64,000 bases of DNA from Eledone cirrhosa. Its lineage: Eukaryota. The DNA is taken from assembly GCA_964016885.1 (NCBI GenBank), contig OZ024743.1, positions 103,168,001 through 103,232,000 of the forward strand. The letters are read 5' to 3'. The notes beneath the pieces were generated by a model, which saw only the letters and a program-made list of their open reading frames with translations, ran no database searches and was not told the origin of the DNA. Positions within the stretch are counted from its first letter, which is position 1. Every line of letters starts with the position of its first letter. The position numbers and the translations under genes are program-made. Positions 1 through 63,129 of the stretch are shown here, one piece after another.

Positions 1-2158
1 ACAAATGACCTATTTCCCATTGAGCAGAAAGGGTGTAAACGAGGCTCATATGGCTGTAAGGATCAGCTTCTGGTTAACAAAATGATACTGGAAGATTGTC
101 ATAATAGACACAAAAATCTATCGATTGCTTGGATAGATTATAAAAAAGCATTTGATAGTTTGCCACACAGTTGGATTGAAAAATGTTTAGAGATTTTCAA
201 AATATCCCCCGTTGTCAGGAGGTTTTTGTCATTCAGTATGAAGACATGGAAAACGACACTCCTTTTGAATAGTGAAACAAAATCACTGGAAGCTAGAGAA
301 GTTAATATTAATTGTGGAATTTTTCAGGGTGAGTCTTTATCACCGCATTTATTCTGCATCGCACTTATACCATTAAGTAAAATGCTCAATGAAACAAAAC
401 ATGGATATAAAGTCTATGACAAAACCATTAATCACCTGTTCTACATGGATGACCTGAAACTATTTGCAAAAAATGATGAACAATTGCAAGGGCTATTATC
501 CACTGTGAAGCAGTTCAGTGATGACATTAAAATGGAGTTTGGACTAGATAAATGCGCCAAAGCAACGTTCACCAGAGGAAAGCTGCTGAAGAGTTCAGAC
601 ATTAATCTTGATCGGCGGAACGTGATAAGAGAACTTGATCAAGAAAAAACTTACAAATATCTAGGTGTTTGTGAAGGAGACGGAATCAAGCACTCGACAA
701 TGAGGGAAAGGATAAGGAAGGAATGTTACCGCAGAGTAAGAGCAATCTTAAGAACGGAATTGAATGCAAGGAATAGGATCGATGCCATAAACACGCTTGC
801 CATACCAGTAGTAACCTACAGTTACAATGTCATCAACTGGTCAAGCACAGAGATCCGTAGGCGCGATACAAAAATTCGAAAATTCTTAACCATGCACAGA
901 ATACATCACCCTAAGGCAGATATAGATAGAATATATCTCCCTAGGAAAGAAGGAGGACGTGGGTTAATCCAGTTAGACATTGCGTTGAAAACTGCAACAA
1001 TTGGTTTATCTACATATCTAAGGGAATCACATGATTGGATGATCAAACTCGTTTTGAAACACGAAAGCATCAAAAGATCATATTCCATTACAAAAGATGC
1101 ACAAAGATACAGTAATGGACTACAAATTTCAGAAGCCCCATTTACTGCTGAAATGGAAAACACAGAAAAAGCAAAGCAGGTAAAAGTAACTGCAAAGAAA
1201 GAACTGCTACAGAAACTGGCTAAGAAATGGCAAGAAAAGCCTCTGTATGGAAAATACCCAGAGCGAGCTAACAATCCTGATGTTGACAAAACTTTAACCC
1301 ATCAGTGGTTGGCATCCTCTTGACTGAAATCGGAGACTGAAGGACTGAAGGACTGATTATATTGGCACAAGATCAGTGTCTGCCAACAAAAAATTACCAA
1401 GCCAACATAATAAAAAATGGGTACAGCCCATTATGCCGTGTATGCAAAAAACAACCAGAGACCATTGACCATATAATTTCAATGTGCAGTCCTATAGCTC
1501 CAACCGAATACCTAAACAGGCATGACAGAGCTGCACAATACATACATTGGATAATGTGTAAGCATTTTGACCTGCCCATCAAAAGAATTGGTGGGAGCAT
1601 CAACCACCTCCCATACTTGAAAAAGATCACATCTCAATCTTGTGGAACTTTAGCATCCAAACAGACCGAAAAATAGATGCAAACAGACCTGATATAATAT
1701 TGAAAGACTTTCAAAAGAGGGTATGCCTGCTAATTGATATGTCTGTTCCAATAGACAAGAATGTATCTATAAAAACATTTGAAAAATTGAGCAAGTATAA
1801 GGACCTGGAGATAGAAATTGGAAAAATGTGGAAATTGAGAACTAAAACAATACCAGTGGTTGTAGGCGCTCTGGGAATGATACCTAAGGGGTCTAATGAT
1901 TACTTATCGCAAATCCCAGGAAACCCGCGTATAGGAGAAATACAAAAGATAGTACTAATGGGAACTGCCCATATACTAAGGAAGATTCTGTCAATATAAG
2001 TACATCACAAGTCTAAACACTAAAGATGCATGTGTGAATATGTATGTTCTTTCTTGAACATGGCGGACCTTGTTGTCTCTTGAGGTCACTGGTTGTGACT
2101 TGGTGATAACTCGTATGAACATAAAGCAAGATAAATGCAACTGTAATAATAATAATAA
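1..2158 (+). mobile_element. R4/Dong-clade non-LTR retrotransposon (RT + CCHC + restriction-like endonuclease), 3' part, inactivated
   Basis: The RT frame enters from the window edge ([34 protein letters not shown]). A stop at 1321 and an 8-bp duplication frameshift follow. Downstream are CRVC..ETIDHIISMC and RPDII..LIDMSVP..EKLSKY (RLE). The 3' UTR has a gtcac-tggtt-gtgac hairpin and a (TAA)n tail at 2144-2158. Confidence 0.93.
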
Positions 2159-2161
2159 GAA

Positions 2162-2192
<31 letters not shown>

Positions 2193-2245
2193 AAGAAGAA
2201 GAAGAAGAAGAAGAAGAAGAAGAAGAAGAAGAAGAAGAAGAAGAA
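2157..2245. repeat. (GAA)n microsatellite
   Basis: About 29 GAA units continuing from the TAA tail. Confidence 0.98.
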
Positions 2246-2248
2246 CGA

Positions 2249-2670
2249 GGTGGTAGAAGGTCATGAAATCGCTCCCGTAAGTTTTGAATTTTTAACATAT
2301 TTAAATCATTTGTGAAATAACATCTCTTAGTACAAATGCTACGTAAAGCATCCGGCTTGAGCACCAAAAAAATTCGGACCCAAAATATATTGTTATAAGG
2401 CTCAAATATTCAAATATTCAACTTTGTATTGTACATTGTATATTCAAAAAAGAAAATGGCTATAAATGGAAGAAGAGGAACCCACCCCCCTCCTCTGTCT
2501 ACACTATATAGAACAGCCAAACAACACCAATCTCACCAACACCAGAAACTAGATACACCACCTACCCCATCACCTATCTGTGTACACTAAACACAACAGC
2601 CAGATAACGGCAATTTCACCACAACCAATCTCAACATAATAATGATAATAATAAATACTATTATTATTGT
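2249..2670 (+). mobile_element. Probable 5' fragment of a Tx1/L1-type element
   Basis: Same layout as the 5' ends at 11269 and 40473: GG start, GTAAGT about 28 nt later, A-rich run before ATG (aaaagaaaATGgct, 2456), then decayed Asn/Thr-rich sequence. Confidence 0.4.
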
Positions 2671-2719
2671 CCCAAGTTTTAACAAAATGTTTAACCCCAT
2701 AGATTCACCGAACGGACAT

Positions 2720-3010
2720 TAGTAACGACAACGCCGCCCATCCATCATTACTACCACTATCCCATCACCGCCGCCACCACTCCTTCATTGCTACCACCGC
2801 TACAACACCACCATCACTACAGAATACGACCACATCACCACTACCACTGCCATCATTACTACCACTATCCCACCACCGCCGGCACCACTCATTCATTGCC
2901 ACCACCGCTACAACACCATCACTACAGTAATACGACCACATCACCACCACCACTGCCTCAGTATCGACATCACCACCACCACTGTCTCAGTAACGCTACC
3001 GCCGCTATTC
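2720..3010. repeat. (CAC/CAT/TAC) low-complexity repeat with internal duplication
   Basis: ccatcattactaccactatccca... and ctacaacaccatcactacag each occur twice. Confidence 0.85.
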
Positions 3011-3359
3011 TTTCCCATTGCTTCCTGCTAGTTGCTGCCACCACATTATAGAATTCCTACTAAAAAAGAGGAAGGCATCAAAATATATAGATAGACTCAA
3101 AAGAAAAAAGAAAAAACAAACATCAAAACCAAAGCAGCACAGCAACAACAGCAAACAAAAAAGAGAAAAACAAACAGAGAAAAACAAAAACAAAAAAAAA
3201 CGTAAAGAAAATAAGAATGAAGAGAGAAACAAGCGGACGGACAGAGAAGAGAAGGGAAAAGCTAAGTCAGACATTCGAACACAACATTACAATGAAACTT
3301 ATGCTTATTCATTTTTGGGGTTTTTTCTGCCTGTGTGTTTGTTTGTTTATTTGTGTTCG

Positions 3360-6300
3360 TCTACAGCGTGGTGATAATGCCACACAAGAGCCAAGTGGAG
3401 CGGCGCAACCACCGGAGACGGTGAATCCACAGATGGTTATGTAACTATACATTCGCCAATCCTCGATAAGAGTGTTTAAATATCGAACCTAAACAGTTCG
3501 AATAACGGTGAAATGGAGACTAGAACGACATGTGACAGACTCTCACCCAACAGGTGCTCCCTGGCTCAGCAGCAGCAACCTGGCTGTCAACTAAATACTG
3601 CTGGTGTCGGAGGAAGAAGAAAAAGGAAAGGGACCAGAACCAACTGGACGAAAGAATTGAATAGAACTGTTATGCAATGTTACCTGAAAAGTAACCCCAA
3701 GGAGAGGGGCTAAAGGAGACAGATGCATAACATCTGGAACGAGATTGGTCTATTTATATTAGATGAACAAAAATTGGCCGGGCAGGCTCGGGTAATAAGA
3801 ACTAATGGGTGGATAAGCGAGCTGGAACTGGAGGAACTGAGCAGAGAGATTAGCTTGGAGATGGAGGGTGGAGTATGCCAGGCAAACGAGCCAGTGGGAA
3901 ATGAAGGTGAAGAGGTCGAGAGAACGGAGGAACCACCCGAAGCAGACAATGATCTGAATACTGAGATAAATAATACCTGGAACACAGATACGGCCACTGA
4001 GTAGATGAATGCTGACGGGCTAGGACAAGATTCGGTTGACATCCTACATTTAGTGGTAGATGAATTGAACAATGATAGTGGGAGACCTATGAACCTAAGA
4101 TTTGTAGACAGGAAAAAGTTAAAAGAAACAACAGCTAAGGTAAACAAAGTCATCCCATACCTTGAGGCGAGGAGCCTTCACCAGTGCAACAATATCCTCA
4201 AAGCAACAGCAAATGCGGTGAGGAAATTACTTGGCATAAAAGCGAGAGGAAACAACAAACAATAAAGATCAGAACCTTGGTGGAAGAAGCGATTGAATGG
4301 TCAAATCAGGGAAATGAGAAATGACATTGGAAAGCTTGAGTCACTACTGAATGGGACACTAAAAAACATAGGCACTAAAAATAGACTGGAAATAAAGTAC
4401 AAAACTAGGGGGAAAAAGCTAAATATTATCATAGAGGAACTGAAGCAACGCATTGTAGCAAAGAGTGCAAAAATCAGGCGATACGAGAACAGAGTCAGTC
4501 AGTATAAACAGAACCGCATGTTCGACAACAACCAGAAGATGCTGTTTGGACAGCTTGAGGGGAAAGAAAGAGGCAACGACTTGATCCCTGAGGCGGAACA
4601 AACTAAAACATCTGGAGAGGAATATGGGAGCAGGATGTTAGACATAATGACCAGGCAGGGTGGATTGAGACAGTACAGAGGGAGATCGGTGTGCAGGCAC
4701 ACCAACAAACTGATTTGAGTATCACAGTTGAAACTCTTAAGGGGCAGGCCAAAAAACTAACCAATTGGAAATCACCAGGCCCAGATGGTGTGCAGGGGTA
4801 TTGGATTAAAAATTTAACATCCCTCCACCCGAAACTGACAACCATGTTCAATGACTGCTTGGTGTCAGGTGAGGTACCAGAGTGGTTGACAAAAGGTACC
4901 ACAGTTCTGATAATGAAAGACCGAATCAAGGGTAATGATGTTACCAACTATAGACCTATCACATGTCTGTCCGTAATGTGGAAACTGCTGATCAGCATTG
5001 TGTCTGAGGAAATCTACCATCACCTCCACACAAACAACCTGTTACCGGACGAACAGAAAGGATGCCGAAAGGAGTCACGTGGTACAAAGGACCAGTTACT
5101 TATTGATAAGATGGTAATGAGGAATTGCAAGAGGAAACACACTGGTCTTGCCATGGGATGGATAGATTACAGAAAGGCATTTGACATGGTGCCTCATTCT
5201 TGGATCACCAAAAGCCTGGAAATCTTCAAGGTGGCAGATAACATCAGACAGTTGCTGGGCAGGAGTATGAGGTCCTGGGAAACAGAGTTGACACCAACTG
5301 GAGAATCCTTGGGAAGCGTGAAGATCAAGAGAGGTATCTTCCAGGGAGATAGCCTGTCCCCTCTGTTGTTTGTCCTTGCCCTGATGCCCCTGACCATTAT
5401 GCTGCGAAAAGTGAGAGCAGGATACAAGTTGGGAAACGGAAAGCTTACCATCAATCACCTCCTCTTCATGGACGATCTTAAGCTCTTCGGGAAGAGTGAG
5501 AAGGAGTTGGATGTGCTTGTTGACACTGTTCGTAGTTTCAGCAGTGATATATGTATGCAGTTTGGTATTAGTAAGAGTGGAGTCATTGTGATGAGGAGGG
5601 GTAGGTTGAGCAGAAGTAACGGAATCCAGATACCAACAGGTGAGATGATAAAGGAAATTGACTCTGAGGAAGGATACAAGTATTTGGGCGTTCTGGAGGC
5701 TGATGGCATAAAGAACAAAAAAATGAAGGAATTGTTAAGAACTGAATACATTCGGAGAGTAAGGAGCGTATTGAAGTCACATCTGAACAGCAGAAATGCC
5801 ATAAGCGCAGTAAATTCCCGAGCTGTGTCTATTATTAGGTACAGTGCAGGAATTCTGAGATGGAATGTTGCTGAACAAAAGGAAATGGATAGGAAGACTA
5901 GGAAGCTATTGACTATCTACAACATGTTCCACAAGAGGAGTGATGTCGATAGATTCTACCTAAGGACATCTGAAGGTGGATGAGGTCTTATCAGCATAGA
6001 GGACTGTGTTCAGATGGAGAAAAACAACCTACACAAATACGTGACTGATAGTAAGGAGCCAATGCTCAGAACTGTACTGAAGGAGGGGACAATAAGCCAG
6101 GGGATGTCCAAGGAGGAACATCAAGGAGAAAGAGCAGCCTTCAGTGAAAATACCTTCATAGTACCTTCTTTGAGATAACTGAATTTAGAGATCCACAGAC
6201 ATGGAACTGGTTGAGAAGAGGAGACCTCAAAAAGGCTACAGAAGGAATGTTAATGGCTGCGCAGGAGCAGGCCCTCAAAACGAAGTGGTTGAAACACCAT

Positions 6301-7001
6301 ATTTACAAGGAGGAGGCTAGCCCACTGTGCAGGATCTGTGGAGAGAGAGAGGAGATTGTGGCTCACATTGTATCCGAGTGTAAACACCTAGCCCACTCCC
6401 ACTATAAGGGCTGGAGACTTGATGTGATGGGCAGGGTGATCCACTGGCACCTGTGCAAAGTAAACAATTTACCACATTCTGAGAAATGGTATGAGCATAA
6501 GCCAGAGGCGGTGATGGAGAACGATCAGGTGAAGGTGCTGTGGGATTTTAGGATACAGACGGACAAGAAGCTGGAACACAATAGACCTGACCTGGTGGTT
6601 GTGGACAAAGAAAAAAGATCGTGTCTGATTGTGGATGTGGCCTGCCCATTCGACACGAGAGTGCAAGAGAAGGAGAGGGAGAAAATTAACCGATACCAGG
6701 ACTTAAAGTAGGAGGTAAAAAGGATTTGGAACTGCCATGAAGTCAAAGTGATCCCGATTGTCATAGGCGCACTGGGGACTATCTCCAAAAGTTTCCAGGG
6801 ATGGTTAAAGAAAATCGGCCCCTTCACGCTTTTTGGAACGCTTCAAAAGGCATGCTTGCTGGGAACAGCAAGAACCCTCCGATACGTCCTGAATATCTGA
6901 GGCTGCAGGTAGTGGCTTGATATTCATTCCAACGGACTTTCCAGTTAACTAACATCAATGTCTGAGATTCAAGGAATAATAATAATAATAATAATAATAA
7001 T
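3360..7001 (+). mobile_element. Near full-length Dong (R4 clade) retrotransposon with multiple stops and frameshifts, (TAA)n tail
   Basis: N-terminal RTNWTKELNRTVMQCY...QARVIRTNGW, EPWWKKR, RT 4691-5983 (KSPGPDG, GIFQGDSLSPLLF, HLLFMDDLKL), CRIC..HIVSEC, HNRPDLVV..IVDVACP RLE, stop 6900, AAT repeats 6975-7001. The 5' boundary is approximate. Confidence 0.93.
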
Positions 7002-10000
7002 GTTTTCTTTATTAACCACAAGGGTTTACATAAAGTAGACATTAAGGACAGTACAGGACAATACAGGACGGTACAAATGGGCATTTCTGCGTGTAAAAAA
7101 AACAGAGGAGGTAATAAAATAACAAAAAAAAATTCCCCAATAGGGGGGAGATTTCCGAGGGACATTTGTGGAGAAAGCCCATTAAAAGACCACAGTGACC
7201 CTGACCACCAGGGCAAGTGCCCTCTCCCAGTTTTCCACCTTTAATTTACAGACACATACTCAGAGAAGGCCCATTCATTCGGGCCATTCTTGCTTCTCTC
7301 ACCCATCTTTCAACAAAATGCTGGGAAGAGAGCACTTCCCTCTCTACCCTGATTTTCCTTTTCAAATGAAATTTGAAAAAGTTAATCAGGGCATCACCGA
7401 AGAGGTAAGTGCTCGTCTTCAGCCCTTTCAAACGTGTCCACCATACTATCTCTTTCGCCATGGCCACCAGACAGATAAAAACTGCCTGCCCTTCCCGGCT
7501 AAAGGAAGAGGGCGGGGCAATCCTCACGATGGACTCAGCTGATAGCTGGATCCGTCCTACCCGTGACAGCAGGTGTTCGACGTAAACCCACAAGTCAGCA
7601 ATGCTCGGACACTGGACGAGTGCGTGCAGGACGGTTTCGTCGCCCTGTGTGCATCTCGGACATGCCCGTCTGACGGCACCTCCATGCCTGTAGAGTTTAT
7701 CCCGAACTGGCAAAGCTCCTCGGTAGCACTGCCAGGCCAGGGATTTCTGGAAGTTGTCCATAGGCCCCGGCCCGAAAGTCCTTCTGAAGAGATTGGCTAG
7801 TTGATTTTCGTCGACGCCTAGAGTTTCTCCAAGTACGTCGTCGCTCTTCCCCTCCACTAATCCCCTATAGAACGCCAAGGTGGAGTTTCCACCGATCACA
7901 TTGCCCGATTGGTCGAGGGCTGTGAGCGCTTGAAGACATTCCAGTCTCCAAGCGCTCCCTCTCGGTCTTCGCTTGACCCAGGACTGCAGCTTCGTCAAGG
8001 AGACGAGCTGGGGAAAAACGTGTCTAGCAAACGGCGACCACACCTGATCACCGTCGAGGAAGAGGTGGAGATGTCGTAGCCTGAGCGCGTGTCTGCGCAT
8101 CATCAGCCACGGCATGCCCAGCCCTCCACGTAGCGGGTGTTGACAGCAGATGGACCGCCTGACCATCGGAGCGCGTCCTTTCCACAAGAAGCGAAAGAGC
8201 AAACGCTCCAGCGCAGTCAGGCAGGGCTTAGGACAAGGTACGACGGTCAGGCGGTACTAGATGACGGACGCGATATACGCGTTAGCCACCTACTCTCGAC
8301 CTTTCAGGGATAGCTTCCTCTCGGCCCATTTCTGGGTGAGAGAAGCCACCCTGCTCGTCACCTTGTCCTAGTTTTTGTCCGTCTGGAGGTCTGGACCGAA
8401 CCAGACCCCTAGCAATTTAACCGGTCCGTCCGTCCAGCACCCGACGACGCTGTTGGACGGCATGGACCTGCCTCTCCAGGTGCCGAGCTGCAGGCTCACT
8501 GACTTTTCCTGGTTGATCATTGCTCCTGTCACCGCTTCGTATTCTCTTAGTGTAGTGCCGATCGCCTCGATATGTTTGGCGTTCAACACCACTACGGTGA
8601 CATCGTCTGCATATGCTGACACGGATCTTCCGCATCCTAGTTCGCGCGGGACCCCCCTCAACGTCTCCAGTTTGTGCAGTAATGGCTCGAGAGTCAATAC
8701 GTACAATAGGGACGAGAGGGGACATCCTTGGCGGACCGAGCGCATGATGTTGAACGGTTCCGAAAGGTGACCGTTCACTCTCACTACAGAGCAGATATCG
8801 CTGTGCATGACAGCGATCCAGCCTCTGAAGACGGGCCCAAAGCCAGCCGCCCTCAGGACTGCCGCTAGGTAACGATGGTCGACCCTATCGAAGGCTTCGA
8901 CTGATCTAAATTAATCAAAGACCCACCCGTGCCAGGTTCCCTAGCTACCCTCTCTACGATGTATCGCATGAGGTGGAGATTGTCGTGGATGGATCTGTCG
9001 GGAATGGCGCATGTCTGTGCCTCTCCCACCAGACCACAAACGACTTGCGCCAACCTCTTTGCTAGCACCTTGGCCAAAATCTTGAAACCTGTGTTTAGCA
9101 GAGTTATGGGCCTAAAATTATCTATGTTATCCCCCTTGTTCGGATCCTTTCTCAGCAGCGCCACCGCTCCTCGGCTCACAGAGCTGGGAATTCTCCCGTT
9201 CTGTTGCCAGTTGCAGTAGACGTCCGCCAAGAGACCTCCGAAGAAGTCTGGCATTTGTACGTAAAGTTCATAGGGCAGACCATCCAAACCAGGCGATTTA
9301 CCCCTTGTGCAGCCAGTCATTGCCTCCCGTACTTCAGCGGTTGTTATCGGCTTTCGCAACACTCCGCCTCAGTGGCGAAAGCCTCGGCAGTCCGTGGAGG
9401 TAGACACTAAAGTCCATCCCTCGATCCGGCCCGCCACTGCCCCCGAACAGTTGAGCGAAGTGTCGCTGAAAAGCTTCACACATTTGCCCGGGATCGAGTA
9501 GCATGCGCCCGTCGTGGTCCACCAAAGACCGGATCGTGGATTTGTTGCCACGACGCGCCTCCGCCAATCGGGCCCATTGAATGGACTCTATTCTAATTGC
9601 TTTTCAGAGCAAACCACCACTTGTTGTTGACGATGGCCCCCGTCAACGCCCGCTTAACTAGTTCGCTAATCCGGTCTCTGTAGGCCTTGCGCGTAAGGAC
9701 GTGTTTAGCTTCCAGTAGCCGGGTCCTCGTCTATGAAGCCTATCTAAGTCAAGCACACAGATCACGAATTTGTGTCCGTGTAGCTGACTATCTTGAATTG
9801 TGGACAGCTTATGCTAGACCTATCTATTCCCCTACAAAATACTCTACTTAGTTATGATCTGGATGACCCTATGCGATTTGTCCAAGTCCACATTGGCACA
9901 TTCGGGAAATCCAATCGGTACCTGTCAGACAGTTCAAAACGCCTGAGCAGGTTGGTGAGACTCTTGCACCCTCCTCCCCTATCCGCTAATCCCACACAGT

Positions 10001-11269
10001 CCCAGCGTGCATCTAAGATCCCGTTCCAGTCGCCCACTAACACTAAAGAGCGGGACGTTCCAAGAAAGGTCTCCAGACGCCGGAAGAAATCGGGCCGCCC
10101 TGCTCCTGTCGGGGCATAGACGGCCACTAGCCTGAAAGCTTTTCCCGTCTCCGCTGGTCAGGTCCAGCACCACCAACTTACCTTCTGGGTCCAGGAAGAT
10201 GGCCGGTATGGCGAGATCCAAACCTCTCCGAAAAAGCACAGCAACTCCTCCCCCCGATCCCGGACGGCTGGGAGATGCGTACACATCGTAGCCGCCGAAG
10301 ATCGGTGTGAAGGCCCGTGCTTCGGAGATTCTTGTCTCGCTGATGGCCACTGACTTGAACAACACCGAAATGGTGCCGTACTGTCTGCCCCTCTCTATGT
10401 ACTGGGTGTCTTCTCTGATGCACCTCAGCGCGACTTCGACATCTTCTTGTGGGATTAAAGCTGACCTTTTGGTTTGTGCTGAGATGTATCTATAATGCAC
10501 CGTTTTGCGCGCCACTGCCTCAATAGCTTCTACCGGGACAGTTAAGTTGGCCCAAGTTTGCTCTTGCTTGATGAGCTTCCATGCCTGGGCCAACTTTTCA
10601 TCTTTGTTTGAGAGGTCCATGTTGAAGCATGGCCTCTTTTTTGCTGCTGCCGCAGCGAAAGTGTTCTTCATGTTTTCGTTGGGGGTTTTGTTGTCGTTGT
10701 TCTTGGTGGTGTTGTTGTTAGCACTGTCGCTGTTATCATTGTTGTCTTTGTTGCTACCGTTGTTCTCGGTGCAGTTGGTATTGTTACTGTTGGTGTTGTC
10801 GCTATTTGTTTTCATGTTAGTGGTGTTGATATTGTTGTTGTATTTGGTACTTTTTTTTTGTTATCTGTATTTTCGTTGTCACTGTTACTGTCATTTTTTT
10901 CAAAATTAGAGTTCTCATTGGTATCATTGCTGCATTTGTTTACATTGTTTGTGGTGATGTTTGTGTTATCAATGTGTGTTAATTTTGCTGTAGCGCTCCT
11001 CTCAACTTCTACGTCGTTGTCGCACGACAGCCGACATATACCTGGGGGGCGTGGCTCAGCCATGTTTTTTTTTCTTCGTAAATTTTTTAACATGTAAAAA
11101 AAAATTCAAATATTTGGGCCAAAAGGCCCAAATATTATACTTTCCCCTTCACGGGGCAAAGTCTAAGGGTTTATATCCCTTACGCAACAAGAAATATTTA
11201 ACAAAAAATAATTTTAACAGGCAAATAAAGCGACTTACTGTGAGCGAGCAAAATACGTCCGCTTAGACC
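7002..11269 (-). mobile_element. Tx1/L1-clade non-LTR retrotransposon (ORF1 + APE-RT-CCHC ORF2), both ends present, internal deletions
   Basis: APE motifs (SETR, VYAP, GDWN), RT (KSPGLDGLP, RQGCPLS, AYADD), CPRC..ETVLHALVQC, Asn/Thr-rich ORF1 start. The minus-strand 3' end is AATAAA followed by (ATT)n, and the 5' end GG abuts an ATT tract. Confidence 0.93.
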
Positions 11270-11299
11270 AATAATAATAATAATTGTTTCTACGTTAGG

Positions 11300-11303
<4 letters not shown>
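11270..11303 (-). mobile_element. SINE 3' tail remnant with (ATT)n tail
   Basis: tgtttctacgttaggcaca matches the SINE ends at 61460 and 62951. Confidence 0.75.
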
Positions 11304-30855: not shown

Positions 30856-31282
30856 GGGAAAAGAACTTTCAATAAGATTTAAGAGGTTAATAAAGTTAAT
30901 GATTTAGGAAATCCATAATATAAAGATTAAGTTTTAAGTTAGGATTTGAATTTTAAGAGTTCCAAACCCAGAAATTAAAAAATTTAATGAATTTAAGATT
31001 AAGCAATCTTATATATCCAAGATTAAAAATTAAAGATTCAGAGGTTGAACATTAAATTTAATTTTAAAAATAAAGAAATAAATAGTTGAAAGAAATTAAT
31101 CAATTAAAGGTTAATTCAAAAAGCCTTCAAAAAATCCCTCAGAAAAGGCCCCTTTAATATTTTTAATAAAAACCTCTTCCGAAAAACCCTTCTAAGAATT
31201 AAAAAGGAAGACACTCGGCATATATCTCAGAAACAATAATGAAAGAAAAAAAAAATTAATAATAATAATAATTATGATAATA

Positions 31283-31986
31283 ATTTACAAGGAGGAGGCT
31301 AGCCCACTGTTTAGGATCTTTGGAGGGAGAGAGAGAGGAAACTGTGGTTCACATTGTATCCGAGTGTAAACACCTAGCCCAGACTCACTATAAAGGCTGA
31401 AGACATGATGTGATGGGCAGGGTGATCCACTGGCACCTATGCAAAGTAAACAATTTACCACATTCTGAGAAGTGGTATGAGCATAAGCCAGAGTCGGTAC
31501 TAGAAAACGATCAGGTGAAGGAGCTATGGGATTTTAGGATACAGACGGACAAGAAACTGGAACACAATAGGCCTGACCTAGTGGTTTGGGACAAGGAAAA
31601 AAGATCGTGCCTGATTGTAGATGTAGCCTGCTCATTTGACACGAGAGTGCAAGAAAATGAGAGGGAGAAAATTAACCGATACCAGGACTTAAAGTGGGAG
31701 GTAAAAAGGATTTGGAACTTCCATGAAGTCAGAGTCGTCCCGATTGTCATAGGCGCACGAGGTACTATCTCAAAGAGTTTCCAAGGATGGTTAAAGAAAA
31801 TTAGTCCAGTCCCGCTTTTTGGAACACTTCAAAAGGCATGCCTGCTGGGAGCAGCAAGAACCCTCCGATACGTCCTGAATATCTGAGGCTGCAGGTAGCG
31901 GCTTGATGTTCATTTCAACAAACTTTCCAGTTAAATAACATCAATGACTAAAGACTCAAAGAACAATAATAATAATAATAATAATA
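31283..31986 (+). mobile_element. 5'-truncated Dong copy (CCHC + RLE + 3' UTR) flanked by TAA repeats
   Basis: Closely similar to 6300-6975. TAA tracts at 31256-31283 and 31964-31986. Confidence 0.93.
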
Positions 31987-33668
31987 TAGTTTGTCCCCTC
32001 TGTTGTTTGTCCTTGCCCTGATCCCCCTGACCATTATACTGCGAAAAGTGAGAGCAGGATACAAGTTGGGAAAGGGAGAGTTTACCATCAATCACCTCCT
32101 CTTGATGGACGATCTTAAGCTCTTCGGGAAGAGTGAGAAGGAGTTGGATGTGCTTGTTGACACTGTCCGTATTTTCAGCAATGATATATGTATGCAATTT
32201 GGTATTAGTAAGTGTGGAGTCCTTGTGATGAAGAGCGGTAAATTGAGCAGAAGCCACGGAATCCAGGTACCAACAGGTGAGATGATAAAGTAAATTGATA
32301 CTGAAGAGGGATACAAATATTTAGGTGTTCTGGACGCTGATGACATCAAGAACAAAAAAAATGAAGGAATTGATAAGATCTGAATACATTCGGAGAGTAA
32401 GGAGCTTATTAAAGTCACATCTGAATAGTAGGAATGCCATAAGTGCAGTAAATTCACGAGCTGTGTCTATTATTAGGTACAGTGCGGGAATTCTGAGATG
32501 GAATGTTGCTGAACAAAAAGAAATGGATAGGAAGACTAGGAAGCTATTGACTATCTACAACATGTTCCACAAGAGGAGTGATGTCGATAGACTCTACCTA
32601 AGGACATCTGAAGGTGGAAGAGGTCTTATCAGCATAGAGGACTGTGTTAAGATGGTGAAAAACAACCTACACAAGTACGTGACTGATAGTAGGGAGCCAA
32701 TGCTCAGAATTGTACTGAAGGAGAGGACAATAGACCAGAGGATGTCCAGGGAGGAAATAACAACAAGGAGAAAGAGCAACCTTCATGAAAAATCCCTTCA
32801 TAGTGCCTTCTTTGAGAAAACTGAATTTAGAGATCCACAGACATGGAGCTGGTTGAAAAGAGGAGACCTTAAAAAGGCTACAGTAGGAATGCTATACTGC
32901 GCAAGAGCAGGCCCTCGAAACGAAGTGGCTGAAACACCATATTTACAAGGAGGAGGCTAGCCCACTGTGTAGGATCTGTGGAGAGAGAGAGGAGACTGTG
33001 GCTCACATTGTATCCGAGTGTAAACACCTAGCCCAGACTCACTATAAAGGCTGGAGACATGATGTGATGGGCAGGGTGATCCACTGGCACCTATGCAAAG
33101 TAAACAATTTACCACATTCTGAGAAGTGGTATGAGCATAAGCCAGAGTCGGTGATAGAAAACGATCAGGTGAAGGTGCTGTGGGATTTTAGGATACAGAC
33201 GGACAAGAAACTGGAACACAATAGACCTGACCTGGTGGTTTTGGACAAGGGAAAAAGATCGTGCCTGATTGTGGATGTAGCCTGCCCATTCGACACGAGA
33301 GTGCAAGAAAATGAGAGGGAGAAAATTAACCAATACCAGGACTTAAAGTGGGAGGTAAAAAGGATTTGGAACTGCGACGAGGTCAAAGTTTTCCCGATTG
33401 TCATAGGCGCACTATGTACTATCTCAAAGAGTTTCCAAGGATGGTTAAAGAAAATTGGTCCTGCCCCGCTTTTTGGAACACTTCAAAAGGCATGCTTGCT
33501 GGGAACAACAATAACCCTCCGATAAGTCCTGAATATCTGAAGCTGTTGGTAGTGGCTTGATATTCATTTCAACAAACTTTCCAGTTAAATAACATCAATG
33601 ACTGAGACTCAAAGAACAATAATAATAGTAATAATAATAATAATAATATTAATAATAATAATGATAAT
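31986..33668 (+). mobile_element. 5'-truncated Dong copy (RT C-terminal half + RLE), head-to-tail with the previous copy
   Basis: Begins at DSLSPLLF, closely similar to 5348-6975, TAA tail at 33618-33668. Confidence 0.93.
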
Positions 33669-35497
33669 GGTTTCTTTATTGGCCACAAGGGCTGACACGA
33701 AGAAAAACATTAGAGCCGGCACAGAACAGTATAGGACGATACAAAGTGGGTTTTGGTCGCGTAAACTGTTTATAACAAAATCAGGCTAGAAATCAATTCA
33801 AACAACAAAAATTCCCCAAGAAGGGGGAAACCTCCGAGGGTCACTCGTGTTGAAAACCACACAAAAGACTACGGCCACCCTGACCACCAGGGCAAGCGCC
33901 CTCTCTCACTTTTCCTACTCTTCAGTCTACAAGCGTATACTCAGAGCGGGCCCGTTCACTCGGACCAGACTCGCCACTTTCACCCACCTTTCAACAAACT
34001 TACTAGAAGACAGCACTTGCCTCTCCACCCTGATTTTCCTCTTCAAATGAAACTTGAAAAAGTTAATCAGGGATTGGCCGGAGAGGAAAGTGTCCGTCTT
34101 CAACCCTTTCAACCTTGTCTACCACACAATCTCTTTCGCCATGGCCACCAGGCAGATCAAAACTGCCTGCCCTTCCTCCTCTTTAAAGGAGGATGGCGGG
34201 GCTATCTGCACAATGGACTCAGTCGAAAACCGGACCCGTCCTACACGCGACAGCAGCGGTTCGACATAGCTCCACAAGTCAGCAATCCTCGGGCACTGAA
34301 CGAGTGCGTGCAGGACGGCTGACAGCACCTCCATGCCTGTAGAGTTTATCTCGAACCGGCAACGCTCCTCGGTAGCACTGCCAGGCCAGGCATTTCTGGA
34401 AGTTGTCCATAAGCCCCGGTCTGAATGTTCTCTTGAAGAGAGCGAACAGCTGATCGTCTTCGACGCCCAGGGTCTCCCCGAGAACATCGTCGCACTTTAC
34501 ATCCACTAGCCCTCTATAGAATGCCGAGGTGGATGTTCCACCGATACTAGTGACCAGCTGGTAGAGGGCGGTGAGTGCTAGGAGACATTCCAGCTTCCAA
34601 GCTCTATCCCTCGGTCTTTTCCTGATCTAGGACTGCAGCTCCGTCAAGGAGACGAGCTGGTGAAAAGCGCGTCTGGCAAACGGCGACCACAACTGTTCAC
34701 CGTCAAGGAAGCACCAGAGATGACGCAGCCTAAGCGCATGTTTGCGCATCATTACCCACGGCATGCCTAGACCTCCACGCAACGCGTGTTGACAGCAAAT
34801 GGATCGTCTGACCATGGGAGTACGTCCCTTCCACAAAAAGCGGAAGAGAAGGCGCTCCATTTTGGTCAGAGTTGGGCGGGGGCAGGGTACGATGGTCAGG
34901 CGGTAGTAGATGACGGACGCGATATACGCATTCGCCACCTCCGCCCGACTTTTCAGAGACAGCCTACTCTCTGCCCATTTCTGGGTGAGAGAGGCCACTC
35001 TGCTCATCACCTCGCTCCAGTTTTTCTCCATCTGGAGGTCCGGACCGAACCAGACCCCGAGCAATTTAACCGGTCCTTCCATCAGCGCCCCACGACACTG
35101 TCGGACGACATGGACTTGAGCTCCAGGTGCCGAGTTGGAAGCCCACCGAATTTTCCTGGTTTATCTTCGCTCATGTGACCGCTTGGTATTCCTTGAGAGC
35201 GGTGCCGAGCATCTGGACATGTTTGGTGCTCGACACCACCACGGTGACGTCGTCGGCGTAAGCTGTCACGGTTCTCCCGCATCCCAGTTCGCGTGGGAAC
35301 CCCCCCCCCCCCATCGTCTCCAATTTGTGCTGTAACGGCTCTAAGGCCAGTACGTACATGACGGACGAGAGGGGGCAACCCTGGCAGACCGAGCACATGA
35401 TGCTGAAAGGCTGCGACAGATGACCATTAACCTTAACAATCGAGCAGATGTCGCTGTGCATCGCAGCGAACCAGCTCCTAAAAACGGGCCCGAAGCC
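33669..35497 (-). mobile_element. Tx1-type element, 3' part of ORF2 and 3' UTR, degenerate
   Basis: QGCPLS, AYADD, GGLGMP, LHALVQC. 3' end aataaagaaacc-(att)n. Confidence 0.9.
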
Positions 35498-38400
35498 GTC
35501 CTACACGTGACAGCAGGTGTTCGACGTAAACCCACAAGTTAGCAATGCTCGGACTCTGGACGAGTGCGTGCAGGAAGGTTTCGTGGCCCTCCGCGCATCT
35601 CGGACATGCCCAGCTGACGGCACTTCCATGCCTGTAGAGTTTATCCCGAACTGGCAAAGCTCCTCGGTAGCACTACCAGGCAAAGGATTTGTGGAAGTTG
35701 TCCATGAGCCCCGGCCCGAAAGTTCTTTGGTAGAGATTGGCTAGTTAATTTTCGTCGACGCCTAGGGTTTCCCCAATTCCGTTGTCGCTCTTCCCCTCCA
35801 CTAATCCTCTATAGAACGCCAAGGTGGAGTTTCCACCGATCACATTGCCCGACTGGTCAAGGGCTGTGAGCGCGTGAAGATATTCCAATCTCCAAGCGCT
35901 CCCTCTCAGTCTTCGCTTGACTCAGGACTGCAGCTCCGTCAAAAAGATGAGCTGGGGAAAGACGCGTCTAGCAAACGGCGACCACACCTGATCACCGTTG
36001 AGGAAGAGGTGGAGATATCGTAGCCTTAGCACGTGTCTGCGCATCATCAGCCACGGCATGCCCAGCCCTCTACGTAGCGGGTGTTGACAGCAGATGGACC
36101 GCCTGACCATCGGCGCGCGTTTCTTCCACAAAAAGCGAAAGAGCAAACGTTCCAGCGCAGTCAGGCGAGGCTTAGGACAAGGCACGACGGTCAGGCGGTA
36201 GTAGATGACGGACGCGATGTACGCAAATGCCACTTCTTCTCGACCTTTCTGGGATAGCTTCCTCTCTGCCCATTTCTGGGTGAGAGAAGCCATCCTGCAC
36301 GTGATCTGGTCCCAGTTTTTGTCCGTCTGGAGGTCCGGACCGAACCAGACCCCTAACAATTTAACCGGTCCGTCCGTCCAGCGCCCGACGACGCTGTTGG
36401 ACGTCATGGACCTGCCTCTCCAGGTGCTGAGCTGCAGGCCCACAGACTTTTTCTGGTTGATCATTGCTCCTGTCACCGCTTCGTACTCTCTTAGTGTAGT
36501 GCCGATTTCCTCGATGTGTTTGGCGTTCGACACCACTACGGTGACATCGCCTGCATATGCTGACACGGATCTTCCGCATCCTAGTTCGCGCGGAAGCCCC
36601 CTCAACGTCTTCAGTTTGTGCAATAATGGCTCGAGAATCAATACGTACAAGAGGGAGGAGAGGGGACATCCTTGGTGGACCGAGCGCATGATGTTGAACG
36701 GTTCCGAAAGGTGACCGTTCACTTTCACCACAGAGCAGATGTTGCTGTGAATGGCAGCGATCCAGCCTCTGAAGACGGGCCCAAATCCAGCCGCTCTCAG
36801 GACTGCCGCCAGATAACTAAATTGATCAAGGACCCACCCATGCCAGGTTCCCTAACTACCCTCTCCACGCTGTATCGCATGAGGTGGAGGTTGTCGTGAT
36901 TGGATCTGTCTGGAATGGCGCATGTCTGCGCCTCTCACACCAGACCACCAACGACAAGTGCCAACCTCTTTGCTAGCACTTTGGCCAAAATCTTGAACTC
37001 TGTGTTTAGCAGAGTTATGGGTCTGAAATTATCTATGTTATCCCCCTTGTTCGGATCCTTTCTCAGCAGCGCCACCGCTCTCCGGCTCACAGAGCTGGGA
37101 ATTCTCCCGTTCTGTTGCCAGTTGCAGTAGACGTCCGCCAAGAGGCCTCCGAACAAGCCTGGCATCTGTACGTAATATACATAGGGCAGACCATCCAAAC
37201 CAGGCGTTTTACCCCATGTGCAGCCAGTCATTGCCTCCCGTACTTCAGCGGCTGCTATCGGCTTTTCGCAACACTCCGCCTCAGTGGGCGAGAGCCGCGG
37301 CAGTCCGTCGAGGTAGGCACTAAAGTCCATCCCTCTATCCGGCGCGCCGCAGCCCCCGAACAACTGAGCGAAATGTCGCGAGTAGCATGCGCCCGTTGTG
37401 GTCCACCAAAACCGGATCGTGGCTTTGTTGCCACGACGCGCCTCCGCCACTCGGGCCCATTGAACGGCTTTCATCCCGTCGTTTCTGAGAGCACGCACCC
37501 TAACTCTGACAACGGAGCCTTCGTGCTTTGCATTGAAGGATTGGTCAAAGGCCAATTTCGCCGCAAGTACGTCGGTCGCGATGCCTTTACTAAGCGCCTC
37601 GTCTAATTTTCTAACTAGTTCTCCCTCTGCTCTAATTTTCTCTATTGCTAAAGCCTTACTAAACCTAATGGACTCTATTCTAATCGCTTTTACAGAGCAA
37701 ACCACCACTTGTTGACGATGGCCCCCGTCAACGCCCGCTTAACTAGTTCGCTAATCCGGTCTCTGTAGGCCTTGCGCGCTGTTAATGACACGTTTGCTTA
37801 CAGTAGCCGGGTCCTTGTCTATGAAGCCTATCTAAGTCAACCTCACAGATCACGAATCTGTGGGTCGTGTAGTCGACTATTTTGAAATGTGGACAGCCTA
37901 TGATAGACCTATCTATTTCCCTACAAAATACCCTATCTAGATATGATCTGGATGACTCGATACGGTTTGTCCATGTCCACATTGGCACATTCGGGAAATC
38001 CAGACGGTACCTGTCAGACATTTGAAACCGTGTGAGCAGGTTTGCGAGTCTTTTACAATCTCCTCCCCTATCCGCTACCCCTACACAGCCCCAGCGTGCA
38101 TCTAAGTTTCCGTTCCAGTCGCCCACTAACACTAAAGAGCGTGACGTTCCAAGAAAGGTATCCAGACGCCCGAAGAAATCAGGCCACCCTGCTCCTGTCG
38201 GGGCATAGACGGCCACTAGCCTGAAAGCTTACCCGTCTCCGCTGATCACGTCCAGCTTCACCAACTTACCTTCTGGGTCCAGGAAGATGGCCCGTATGGC
38301 GAGTTCCAAACCTCTCCGAAAAAGCAGAGCAACTCCACCCCCGATCCAGGACGGCTGGGAGATGCGTACACATCGTAACCGCTGAAGATCGGTGCGAAGG

Positions 38401-40473
38401 CTCGGGCTTCGGAAATTCTGGTCTCGCTGTTAGCCACCACATCTATCGTTCAGCAGATGGCCCTGCTACCATGACGATCCCAGGCCACGCGCATTTATGC
38501 TGCCTATTCTGAGTGAGGTCATGTTGAAAAGGAGTGGGAAAAGATGGGAAATACCACTTACCTCACTTCTCGTAGAGGAAGGATGGTTCATCCATCCTTC
38601 TCACTGCCTGTTGCCTCCTCCGAAAGAATGTCCTTATAAATCCTCCTGGAGAGTGTTTGTCGGGGAATTTTTGTTTTAGTGTCGTGTGCGTTTTCTGTGT
38701 GGTGCGAGTGATTTGTATGTGTGGAAGTGGTGTGAATTTTTGGGGCGTTGTGTAGTCTTTTTCTGTGGTGCTGGTGCTGTGTTGGATGTAGTGTAATAAT
38801 TGGTTGTTGTTCAAATGTAATGCTGTGTAGTGTGTATAGTTTCGGTTGTTTTGTTTTGTTTGCTTTGTTGTGGGTTTGTTTCTGTTTCGGTTTTTGGTGA
38901 TTTTTGTGGTGTTAGTGATGGTGGTGTTGGGGTTAATGATGGTGATGGTGTTGGTATTTGTGGTGATGGGGCTGGTGGTGTCTTAACTTTTTTGCTTGTT
39001 TGATTATTTGTTTCCCCCTGAATTTTGTTTTTGGAGGGCTAAGGAAGAGGAATTTTTCTTTTTGGGGTTCTTTTTTCTTTTTCTTTTTTCCTGATACCAT
39101 TTCCCACTCCTCCTCGTCACAATTTGTCTCCTGTTGGGATAGGCCGGGGAGTGGAAAATCCTCCACAGTCGTTGGTTTTGGTTGTGTTGTGGTGGTGGTG
39201 GATGGTGGAAGGTGGGTTCCTGCGACACAAACGACACTGCTAGGTATTCTACCCTCAACGATTACGGTGAGGTGACTGCTGTCATTCAGGTCTATCACCT
39301 TTGGAATTTCCTCAATGTTTTTTGGTCCGCTTGGATCAGGAGCTCCATCCCAGATCCGGACCAGTTCTCCTGCTTTTCTTTTGTTACCTCAATTATTTTC
39401 GTGTAGGCCTCGATGCCGGCGGGGACGGCCGCCATTAGCCATGGCCGGCGGAACGTGGGTCACCCTGATCTTCACGAGTCTCTGACCACAATAACTTGGG
39501 ACGAGTATGAATTCGTCACTTCTTAATGGGACCATGGAGTGCTCTCTGGCTTCCTGTGGGGTTCCAAAGATCATGTCCACGGTTCGATATTTCTGCCCAC
39601 GTCTGATGTGGGTTTTTTCTCCCACACATGTCCCAAAGCTTTTTTGTATTTGGGACTCGGATGCGCGTTCCACTCGGCGTGATTTTGTGTTTATCGTCCG
39701 ATATGACACGGTGCATAAGCGCCGATGCTCCATTTTATTAGATGGGGGAGGGGGTTAGGCTGACCATGTACCCATCTTGTTTTACCATTCTCTTGGCTTC
39801 ATTTAATTCATCCTGGCTTACCTCGATTATTTCGCTTTTCTTGGCTGCTTTGGCAAACGACACATTTTGTTTTGCGGTGTTGATTTTGTTGTTGTTGCTG
39901 TTGTTGTTGCTGTTGTTGTTATTGTTAGTTTTGTTATTGTTATTTTAGTTTCAGTTGTGGTGGTGGTGGTGTCAGTGGTGTTCAGCGTGGAAGAGTCGAT
40001 TCTGGGTGAATCCATTTCGATGTCACCAGATAATTTATTTGTTTTTGTTTCTGTTGTCGATGTGGTAGGGGTGGCGGCTTTAACACCTGCAGCTATTGGT
40101 AATGGCGGGAAATGAATGTCTGCATGTGACAAATTTAAATTATTGCCACTGCTTATATTTTTAGTGTTGGCAACTGTAGTAATATTTACAATGCTTGTGT
40201 TGGTGTGAGGTGTTAGTTTGTGGGGAAGGCTGTCAGATTTGTGTGGCTGAGAGCCGTCCATGTTTTTTCAAAGAAAGTTTTTGTTTGATAATTATAAAAG
40301 TTTAAATTTTGGGCTCAAGGCCCCAAATCTTTTAGTGTCCTTTTCAGAAAGCAATATATGTGAACTTATAAACACCTAACAACAAAAATATTCCATAACT
40401 GGCAATTTGAAACAACTGAAAACAACAAACCTTTGCGGAACTCACGATAATACGATTTCCTACGTAGGTCGCC
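35497..40473 (-). mobile_element. Tx1-type element with 5' UTR, ORF1 and ORF2 but lacking its own 3' end, degenerate
   Basis: ORF1 remnants at 40261-38563, ORF2 ATG near 38523 (MTSLRIGSINARGL), APE and RT closely similar to 7550-10350. The 5' GG abuts (ATT)n. Confidence 0.9.
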
Positions 40474-40503
40474 AATAATAATAATAATTATTATTATTAT
40501 TAT

Positions 40504-43500: not shown

Positions 43501-44048
43501 TCCTATCAGCTACTCCCAAACAATCCCAGCGTGCGTCTAAGATGCCATTCCAGTCCCCCGCTAACAGTAAAGGGCGAGACGTACCCAGAAAGGTCTCCAT
43601 ACGTCTAAAGAAGTCAGGTCGTCCAGCCCCTGTAGGGGCGTTGACGGCCAGCAGTCTAAAGACACCACCATCGCTACTGTTCACATCAAAGACCACCAAC
43701 TTACCGTCCGGGTGCCGGAAGATCGACCTTACCTCGAGATCCAGTCCTTTCCTAAACAGCACTGCCACCCCACCTCTCATTCCCGGCCTGCTAACAGACG
43801 CGAAGATCTGATAGTCGTCGAAAATGGGGGCTAGTGCGCGCGTGTCGGAAATTCTGGTCTCGCTGACGGCAATCACATCCATTTCCAGCGACCTGAGGTC
43901 GTTGAGCAAGCGACCCTGCTTCCAGGGTGACCCCAGGCCGCGAACATTTAAACTTCTTACTCTTAATATGGCCATGTTGGCAAGCTAAAAGAGAGAGGGA
44001 AGGTTTACTTACCTCCCTCCTTATGTGTGGTGGGTGTACGTTCATGGA
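40504..44048 (-). mobile_element. Tx1-type element of a different subfamily, ORF2 plus 3' UTR, 5'-truncated
   Basis: 43274-43975 encodes APE (LNVRGL, SETR, GDWN, IDR, SDH), 41584-43224 RT, 40782-41654 C-terminus with CPRC..HALVQC. AATAAA followed by an AAT/ATT tail. Confidence 0.92.
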
Positions 44049-61459: not shown

Positions 61460-61640
61460 GGTTTCTACTTTAGGCACAAGGCCAGCAATTACCCAGTGCA
61501 TTACTGGTACTTTATTTTATCGACCCCGTAAGGATGAAAGGCAAAGTCAACCTCGGCGGGATTTGAACTCAGATCGTAATGGGATGTAACTATGCTGGAA
61601 AGCATGGCGTCCGACCCTCTACCGATACTGCCAATCCACC
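61455..61640 (-). mobile_element. tRNA-derived SINE with Tx1-like 3' end
   Basis: Minus strand: tggcagtatcggtagag (A box), gagttcaaatccc (B box), tttgcctttcatcc..gtcgataaaat, end ccttgtgcctaaagtagaaaccatta. Confidence 0.88.
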
Positions 61641-62939: not shown

Positions 62940-63128
62940 GTAATAATAACTGTTTCTACTTTAGGCACAAGGCCAGCAATTACCCAGTGCATTACTGGTA
63001 CTTTATTTTATCGACCCCGTAAGGATGAAAGGTAAAGTCAACCTCGGCGGGATTTGAACTCAGATCGTAAAGGGACGTAACTATGCTGGAAAGCATGGCG
63101 TCCGACCCGCTACCGATACTGCCAATCA
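62940..63128 (-). mobile_element. tRNA-derived SINE with Tx1-like 3' end and TTA tail
   Basis: Near-identical to 61455-61637, end agtagaaacagttattatta. Confidence 0.88.
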
Positions 63129-63129
63129 A

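What the first reader, a model, noticed from the sequence alone, without database searches (positions are those of the whole stretch)
6900..11303. Dong and Tx1 use the same TAA/ATT microsatellite in opposite polarity and nest in each other's tails
Seen: twice (6975-7001 and 33618-33668) a plus-strand Dong and a minus-strand Tx1 meet tail-to-tail across one TAA tract. Both intact Tx1 5' ends read (ATT)n-GG on the minus strand. One of those tracts is the tail of a SINE (11270-11303) and the other is the tail of another Tx1 (40474-40503). Known: Dong inserts into TAA repeats, and some Tx1 families (Kibi, Koshi) target TC/TTC microsatellites. Inference: this is an ATT-specific Tx1 lineage whose tail regenerates a target for itself, its SINE and Dong, producing self-extending stacks such as 31.3-44.0 kb.
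Basis: partly seen in the sequence, partly recalled or inferred. Interest (0 to 1): 0.7.

Follow-up and report, generated by a model that had tools for sequence, protein, structure and literature searches.

The report
ATT-repeat retrotransposon guild with hitchhiking SINE
In this genome one family of jumping genes sits almost only in ATT repeats, an unrelated family sits in the same repeats facing the other way, and a short passenger element that ends in the same predicted RNA hairpin likely borrows the first family's enzyme, so the three pile up in stacks; repeat-targeting is a known lifestyle, here with a target I did not find in print.

Summary
Real, and genome-wide. 296 of 306 exact matches to this L1/Tx1-group LINE's 5' end follow ATTATT. 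At shared tracts Dong-like and Tx1-like elements face opposite ways in 51 of 51 cases: 27 tail-to-tail, 24 head-to-head. 25 of 30 SINEs have a TSD of 8 nt or more starting at or one base after their end, consensus Y|ATTAT. SINE and LINE share a CUUGU-loop hairpin 16-17 nt from the target, with compensatory pairs, so the LINE likely moves the SINE. 35% of in-phase (ATT)4 tract starts follow a LINE/SINE-type end. Tx1-clade membership was not tested by phylogeny. This scan noted the same system on other DNA of this genome. New target variant of a known kind.

The parts
1..2143 (+). 3' part of a second Dong-like family (Dong2); its ORF begins about 1.55 kb left of the window
   Evidence: RVT_1; ORF continues in L246; its 3' end recurs opposite LINE ends in other loci
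2144..2245 (+). (TAA)5 tract then (AAG)n, between Dong2 and Dong1
2246..6974 (+). Full-length decayed Dong-like (R2-group, restriction-like endonuclease) element Dong1; 5' boundary approximate
   Evidence: RT closest to R2 structures; C-terminal CCHC and PD-like motif seen in the translation (motif names recalled); this 5' motif follows (AAT)n in most of the 22 printed copies
6975..7001 (.). (AAT)9 shared tract, tail-to-tail junction
7002..10341 (-). Beta-type L1/Tx1-group LINE body (part of APE, RT, zf-RVT, 3' UTR), frameshifted
   Evidence: 89% to the beta element at 35496-38427
7014..7026 (-). Predicted 3' hairpin (4-bp stem, CUUGU loop) followed by AAUAAA, 16 nt before the tract
10342..11269 (-). 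5' UTR and start of ORF1 of subfamily alpha, joined to the beta body (chimera)
11270..11284 (.). (AAT)5 tract at the alpha 5' end
11285..11302 (-). 18-bp remnant of the SINE 3' end, cut by (AT)n at 11303
   Evidence: same end in SINE copies
31257..31284 (.). Imperfect (TAA)n at the left end of the second stack
31285..31964 (+). 5'-truncated Dong1
31965..31986 (.). (AAT)7 tract between two Dong1 copies
31987..33617 (+). 5'-truncated Dong1
33618..33668 (.). Imperfect (AAT)17 shared tract, second tail-to-tail junction
33669..35495 (-). 3' part of a third LINE subfamily copy, with the hairpin end
35496..40473 (-). Beta LINE with intact 5' end, lacking its own 3' end (joined at about 35496 to the neighbour)
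40474..40504 (.). Two-polarity tract (AAT)5/(ATT)6, atypical
40505..44047 (-). Alpha-related LINE (ORF2 with APE), cut by (AT)n at 44048
   Evidence: 87-88% to alpha
62950..63132 (-). Near-complete copy of the SINE, used as the query for the SINE survey

Best explanation
Several subfamilies of an L1/Tx1-group LINE sit in ATT repeats with one fixed polarity, Dong-like elements sit in the same repeats with the opposite polarity, and the LINE's endonuclease likely nicks the AAT strand opposite Y|ATTAT and likely also inserts a SINE that shares its predicted 3' hairpin. Shown: the positions, the polarity, the SINE TSDs and the shared 3' motif. Inferred, from target-primed reverse transcription: (1) APE cuts 5'-ATAAT/R-3', a pyrimidine-purine step like the poly(T)-A junction cut by L1 endonuclease; (2) ORF2p binds the CUUGU hairpin, which sets the 3' junction 16-17 nt downstream; (3) second-strand cleavage about 17 nt away duplicates the target, so one tract becomes two, and the element's own end (…C|ATT) rebuilds a site; (4) the Dong enzyme nicks the other strand of the same repeat, which forces opposite orientation; (5) both flanking tracts are reused, so stacks grow, and same-strand LINE neighbours are then joined by deletion or template switching into chimeras such as 7002-11269; (6) fresh tracts also come from slippage and probably from a CR1-like element that ends in ATT.
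For: 296 of 306 alpha 5' ends follow ATTATT; 25 of 25 beta 5' ends follow an ATT tract. 5'-truncated copies keep the polarity, so the ATT is target and not part of the 5' end: LINE 24 ATT, 1 AAT, 16 neither of 41; Dong 50 AAT, 0 ATT, 11 neither of 61; background 1.7% each. Element sense at tracts: LINE ATT 198 of 201, SINE ATT 79 of 79, Dong AAT 161 of 164; Dong/LINE pairs opposite in 51 of 51. In the first 30 alpha copies on contig 1, 21 have another guild member across the 5' tract. SINE TSDs of 8 nt or more in 25 of 30, median 17; TTA invariant at +2 to +4; C/T at -1 in 22 of 25. Hairpin: pairs 1-3 are kept in 118-119 of 122 LINE ends and 144-152 of 153 SINE ends; G-C/A-U exchange among LINEs and C-G/G-C between LINE and SINE. 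Covariation score 0.669 against 0.280 shuffled and at most 0.263 slid. ORF2 is closest to L1 ORF2p: 400 bits against 129 for R2. 42,518 of 119,958 V(ATT)4 starts follow GAAANM, against 169 of 91,261 in the reversed controls.
Against: No enzyme assay. 16 of 41 truncated LINE junctions lack an ATT tract by the set criterion; by eye at least three of them are internal deletions and several have only one or two ATT units. TSD length cannot be read inside pure repeats, so an RNA-borne (AUU)n tail is not excluded; L153 and L158 have a perfect 3' tract although the 5' tract is interrupted. Only about 2-3 of 30 SINEs lie in long ATT tracts, so SINE and LINE footprints are not identical. The stem is only 3-4 bp, the fourth pair fails in 85 of 153 SINE ends, the compensatory changes are few events inherited by many copies, and two of the five measures did not exceed the shuffles. 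Most loci were best hits to window ends, not random draws. One fetched copy abuts (TTC)n (L038) and a related one ends in (CTT)n (L130).
Confidence: 0.75

Rival explanations
1. One reading: the LINE RNA carries an (AUU)n tail that creates new tracts, and specificity comes mainly from pairing of this tail with loosely nicked DNA.
For: All three elements end at the repeat. Some copies have a long 3' tract and little ATT on the 5' side (L030, L068, L097, L110). PMC1950540 (passages) suggests RNA-target pairing as an added filter for L1.
Against: SINE TSDs begin at the element end with no extra units, and -1 is C/T in 22 of 25 targets while these SINEs end in A. Four LINE copies reproduce target imperfections from the first unit. 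5' tracts are reused as often as 3' tracts.
Confidence: 0.2
2. Insertion is only weakly specific, and full-length LINEs accumulate in ATT tracts and stacks because insertions elsewhere are removed by selection.
For: The SINE uses short ATTAT sites all over the genome. Passive accumulation is proposed for Drosophila Waldo (PMC3812793, passages).
Against: Selection does not explain exact abutment to ATT in 296 of 306 copies or strand polarity in 198 of 201.
Confidence: 0.08
3. The SINE is moved by another LINE, for example the CR1-like element that also ends in ATT, and its likeness to the Tx1-like end is convergence.
For: A CR1-like 3' end precedes 12 of the first 30 ATT tracts on contig 1. The LINE-SINE match is only about 25 nt.
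Against: Same loop, same 16-nt spacing, same GAAA motif and a compensatory pair. The printed CR1-like and Dong ends lack the CUUGU motif. SINE and LINE share polarity in 30 of 30 shared tracts.
Confidence: 0.12

Closest known systems
Kibi (TC)n, Koshi (TTC)n and crocodilian (TTCC)n/(TTTC)n Tx1 families (PMC4494074, passages and sections 15-16; PMC3812793, passages)
   Same: APE-type LINE of the L1 group confined to one microsatellite
   Different: Target is (ATT)n; invertebrate host; shared with an RLE element in opposite polarity; relation to Kibi/Koshi not tested by phylogeny
Dong (Bombyx, Anopheles, Biomphalaria), TAA-specific (PMC3812793, passages)
   Same: The plus-strand partner has an R2-group RT and sits in TAA repeats at both ends; Dong-R4 and L1-Tx1 are reported as recently active in Octopus vulgaris (PMC13282606, passages)
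   Different: Two families here; no passage read describes sharing of tracts with a Tx1 family
SINEU / Tx1-Mar of crocodilians (PMC4494074, section 16)
   Same: A SINE inferred to be moved by Tx1 from shared target preference
   Different: In that section the link is shared targets, ages and snRNA heads; here it is a shared 3' hairpin and a Y|ATTAT TSD footprint
Stringent-type L1/SINE pairs: monocot 1a L1 with maize/sorghum SINEs; Chlamydomonas L1-1_CR with SINEX-3_CR (PMC3747384, passages)
   Same: L1-group LINE and SINE share a 3' end; in the monocot case a stem-loop with conserved loop and compensatory stem
   Different: Animal host, no poly(A) at the junctions, sequence-specific target

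Membership tests
L1 group (L1/Tx1) non-LTR retrotransposons | ORF2 with N-terminal APE, RT and C-terminal zinc-binding domain | tested here: met
   Exo_endo_phos, RVT_1 and zf-RVT
L1 group (L1/Tx1) non-LTR retrotransposons | RT closer to L1 than to other clades | tested here: met
   154 vs 80 bits and 400 vs 129 bits for L1 ORF2p vs R2; the PDB holds few clades, so this is coarse
Tx1 clade | Groups with Tx1L/Kibi/Koshi/Keno in an RT phylogeny | not testable with these tools
   No named Tx1 reference among 120 listed homologues or the members of 8 clusters; no Atlas result
Tx1 clade | Separate ORF1 with a CCHC zinc knuckle (feature recalled) | tested here: met
   656-aa ORF1 frame with one CX2CX4HX4C in L161; no Pfam hit
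Tx1 clade | Target sequence preference (more than 20% of flanks, the criterion in PMC4494074) | tested here: met
   296 of 306
Kibi/Koshi | (TC)n or (TTC)n target | tested here: not met
   Target is (ATT)n; two copies next to (TTC)n seen among all fetched loci (L038, L130)
Dong (R4 clade) | R2-group RT with a C-terminal restriction-like endonuclease | tested here: met
   Best PDB hits are R2 proteins; CCHC and PD-like motif read by eye
Dong (R4 clade) | TAA-repeat target | tested here: met
   50 of 61 truncated 5' junctions AAT, 0 ATT
Dong (R4 clade) | Placement in R4 rather than HERO or NeSL by phylogeny | not tested
   No named references in hand
Stringent-type LINE/SINE pair | Shared 3' sequence with stem-loop and compensatory changes | tested here: met
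   short stem, few independent events
Stringent-type LINE/SINE pair | 3' end required for retrotransposition | not testable with these tools
   needs a cell assay

The most novel reading that the evidence does not exclude
An animal L1/Tx1-group LINE of the stringent type reads a CUUGU hairpin and nicks a short Y|ATTAT site. In trans it scatters a very abundant SINE over short sites, but in cis it confines itself to long ATT repeats that an RLE element uses from the other strand. This two-enzyme guild has built about a third of the genome's in-phase ATT tract ends and generates LINE chimeras by collapse of its own stacks.
Probability: 0.4. Interest if true: 0.68.

Novelty: new variant of a known kind. 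Interest (0 to 1): 0.5.

Why it matters
How APE-type elements find microsatellites is described as not well understood (PMC3812793, passages). Here one enzyme appears to leave two readable footprints, a short unique-site TSD in the SINE and long-tract confinement in the LINE, which would let endonuclease preference be separated from RNA-target pairing. Two unrelated endonucleases using opposite strands of one repeat give a clean comparison. It would also name a partner LINE for a major SINE of this genome and explain multi-kilobase nested and chimeric repeats that confuse annotation.

Tried and rejected
(1) That the 5' ATT is part of the element: rejected, since truncated copies keep it and varied sequences lie upstream of the tract. 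(2) That 7002-11269 is one intact element: rejected. Only 1 of 20 alpha 5' ends led to its 3' end; most native alpha copies are about 5.9 kb with another end. (3) That 45836-51915 is another Tx1 despite its zf-RVT hit: rejected, its C-terminus is Dong-like. (4) A phylogeny with Kibi/Koshi/Tx1L was not possible, as no named references came back. (5) A single APE sequence found nothing in the PDB; the profile did. (6) Transcript 3' ends: no RNA holder listed, no reads laid. (7) Insertion order in the window's stacks could not be read, as TSDs in pure repeats are ambiguous. (8) The SINE class held false matches and was redone with a stricter filter. (9) The strand skew of hits (38 of 40 minus) was taken as a ranking artefact and not followed. 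(10) Literature: eight searches found no ATT-specific Tx1 and no Dong/Tx1 tract sharing. Repbase and Dfam are not searchable here, and Fig. 3 and the supplement of PMC4494074, which list Tx1 targets, could not be seen and may hold such a family.
Full report
What is in the window. The two tail-to-tail junctions and the two (ATT)5-GG 5' ends are there as described. The first stack reads, left to right: Dong-like family 2 (plus, ends 2143), (TAA)5 and (AAG)n, full-length Dong-like family 1 (plus, about 2246-6974), (AAT)9, a minus-strand LINE (7002-11269), (AAT)5, and 18 bp of a SINE 3' end. The second reads: TAA, two truncated Dong1 copies separated by (AAT)7, a tract, a composite LINE (33669-40473), a two-polarity tract and a LINE cut by (AT)n at 44048. 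The genome has 3.0 Gb in 1796 contigs. The best named homologue of ORF2 is from Argonauta hians at 65% identity, so the host is probably an octopod (inference).

Identity of the elements. The minus-strand LINE has a separate ORF1 with one CCHC knuckle (that this is typical of Tx1 is recalled) and an ORF2 with APE, RT and zf-RVT. It scores best against human L1 ORF2p among solved structures. That places it in the L1 group. Tx1-clade membership proper could not be tested, since no named Tx1 reference was returned. The plus-strand element's RT is closest to R2 proteins, and it has a C-terminal CCHC and PD-like motif (names recalled), which fits Dong/R4 but was not tested by phylogeny.

The window copy is a chimera. 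Of 20 fetched copies with the 11269-type (alpha) 5' end, only one reached the 7002-type 3' end. 18 of the 20 showed a recognisable LINE 3' end; 16 of these were of another type, mostly at 5.7-5.9 kb, and two (L146, L155) were themselves mixed. The window copy follows alpha for about 928 bp and then switches into the APE region of the beta subfamily, the two alignments overlapping by about 14 nt. A second switch lies at about 35496 with a 2-nt overlap. Alpha is directly followed by a same-strand beta copy in 4 of those 20 loci (L148, L150, L159, L163). Deletion within such stacks is a plausible source of chimeras, and template switching is the alternative (inference).

Target specificity. Genome-wide, 306 exact matches to the alpha 5' 16-mer exist and 296 follow ATTATT. 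All 30 best alpha hits and all 25 fetched beta hits follow an ATT tract (of 1319 and 1927 candidates). Truncated 5' junctions, after filtering for 85% identity and 100 bp and dropping intact ends and low-complexity ORF1 hits, gave 24 ATT, 1 AAT and 16 neither of 41 for the LINE. For Dong they gave 50 AAT, 0 ATT and 11 neither of 61; the background was 1.7% per polarity. The repeat is therefore a target for both.

Polarity and stacking. Over the loci held, element ends abutting a tract of 4 or more units read ATT on the sense strand for the LINE (198 of 201) and the SINE (79 of 79), and AAT for Dong (161 of 164). Dong/LINE pairs were opposite in 51 of 51 cases, 27 tail-to-tail and 24 head-to-head; Dong/SINE pairs were opposite in 17 of 17 and LINE/SINE pairs parallel in 30 of 30. 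Among 145 anchored LINE ends the neighbour across the tract was Dong opposite 32, LINE same 36, LINE opposite 1, SINE same 24, unclassified 52. In the least biased set, the first 30 alpha copies on contig 1, 21 were nested. Opposite orientation follows necessarily once each family has a fixed polarity; it needs no interaction between them.

Tails or targets. The 30 best SINE hits (of 2142 candidates) mostly lie in unique DNA. 25 have a TSD of 8 nt or more (median 17) that begins at or one base after the SINE end, with consensus Y|ATTAT(T/A). So the SINE brings no long ATT tail, and a tract behind a SINE is its target or a later expansion. In four LINE copies with an imperfect target (L012, L053, L057, L105) the 3' tract copies the imperfection from the first unit; L153 and L158 do not fit without a later mutation. 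I conclude that target duplication, more than an RNA tail, multiplies the tracts, though a short RNA tail is not excluded. Dong 3' ends often begin with AAC-containing units shared between copies, which suggests a templated start of its tail (inference). 42,518 of 119,958 tract starts of the form V(ATT)4 follow GAAANM, the last bases of LINE and SINE; the reversed controls give 169 of 91,261. This counts only tracts that start in that phase, and the motif can include other elements. Among the first 30 such tracts on contig 1, 13 had a guild member on at least one side, and 12 followed the 3' end of a further element whose C-terminal peptide looks CR1-like (assignment recalled). Two LINE copies sit directly behind that element (L017, L052).

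LINE-SINE link. All LINE subfamilies and the SINE end in stem-CUUGU-stem, then 16-17 nt from the loop to the target, ending GAAAnn. The stem varies in a compensatory way: AACC/GGUU and GGCC/GGCC among LINEs, and UGGC/GCC(A/U) in the SINE. On 16 hand-picked common variants 92% of cells pair, and the covariation score is 0.669 against 0.280 in shuffles and at most 0.263 for slid stems. The counts of changed pairs and of pair types did not exceed the shuffles, and relatedness inflates the rest. Together with shared polarity and the Y|ATTAT footprint this makes the LINE the likely partner.

Mechanism. Most likely, the APE nicks 5'-ATAAT/R-3' on the AAT strand. This is by analogy with L1 endonuclease, which cuts poly(T)-A junctions and reads them with a hairpin loop (PMC1950540, passages). 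ORF2p would prime on RNA held by the hairpin, with a few AUU bases possibly pairing; a staggered second cut would duplicate about 17 bp; Dong's enzyme would do the same from the other strand. The difference between short SINE sites and long LINE tracts is unexplained. Pairing of an upstream-derived 5' AUU run at the second junction, or selection, are candidates.

What is known. TAA targeting by Dong and TC/TTC targeting by Kibi and Koshi are in PMC3812793 (passages) and PMC4494074 (passages, sections 15 and 16). PMC4640811 (passages) names Tx1 as one of three groups with target-specific families. PMC13282606 and PMC8967140 (passages) list Dong-R4 and L1-Tx1 in octopus, and the passages read give no target. 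PMC4824008 and PMC4758252 (passages) name no partner LINE for an octopus SINE. PMC3747384 (passages) gives stringent L1-clade/SINE pairs in plants and an alga. Eight searches found no ATT-specific Tx1, but Repbase and the figure and supplement of PMC4494074 were not visible. Earlier unreviewed notes of this scan describe the same system elsewhere in this genome. Two of them mentioned a SINE link before my hairpin analysis, although I had noted the shared SINE target; I found the hairpin, before the notes that name it. They are not independent support.

Verdict. A real, strong, genome-wide pattern; a new target variant of the known microsatellite-specific Tx1 lifestyle, with a likely SINE partner. 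Interest 0.5.

Noticed in passing
window 45836-51915 (+): An RLE-type (Dong-like C-terminus) element with an internal 1.9-kb tandem duplication, flanked by (ATAC)n on both sides. 20 of 20 fetched 5' ends follow ATAC repeats (one only briefly), and all 40 scored full hits are 100% identical over 150 bp: a young (TACA)n-specific family.
   Followed up: partly
L297:1100-1501 and 11 other loci among L277-L306: An element with a CR1-like C-terminus (recalled motif) ends in (ATT)n behind a different predicted hairpin; a candidate source of fresh ATT tracts.
   Followed up: partly
L130:1690-3144; L038: A related LINE copy with the same 3' motif runs into (CTT)n; possibly a sister family with a Koshi-like target.
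   Followed up: no
L099, L049, L111: SINE sequence joined directly to a LINE 3' fragment with no ATT between; target deletion or a SINE-LINE template-switch chimera.
   Followed up: no
L045, L056, L048, L076: Other sequences beginning G or GG follow ATT tracts; L045 and L056 align to the alpha 5' region at 72-74%, so there are further LINE subfamilies.
   Followed up: partly
window 15727-18933 (+): A 1068-aa open frame with many C2H2 zinc fingers.
   Followed up: no
window 53829-55222 (+): Another RT-bearing fragment, family not determined.
   Followed up: no
window 61461-61636 (-): A SINE copy flanked by (AT)n on both sides, with ATTATAT at the junctions.
   Followed up: no
L246:1601-6371 (left of the window): A further minus-strand stack of Dong1 and Dong2 copies joined at ATT tracts.
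   Followed up: no
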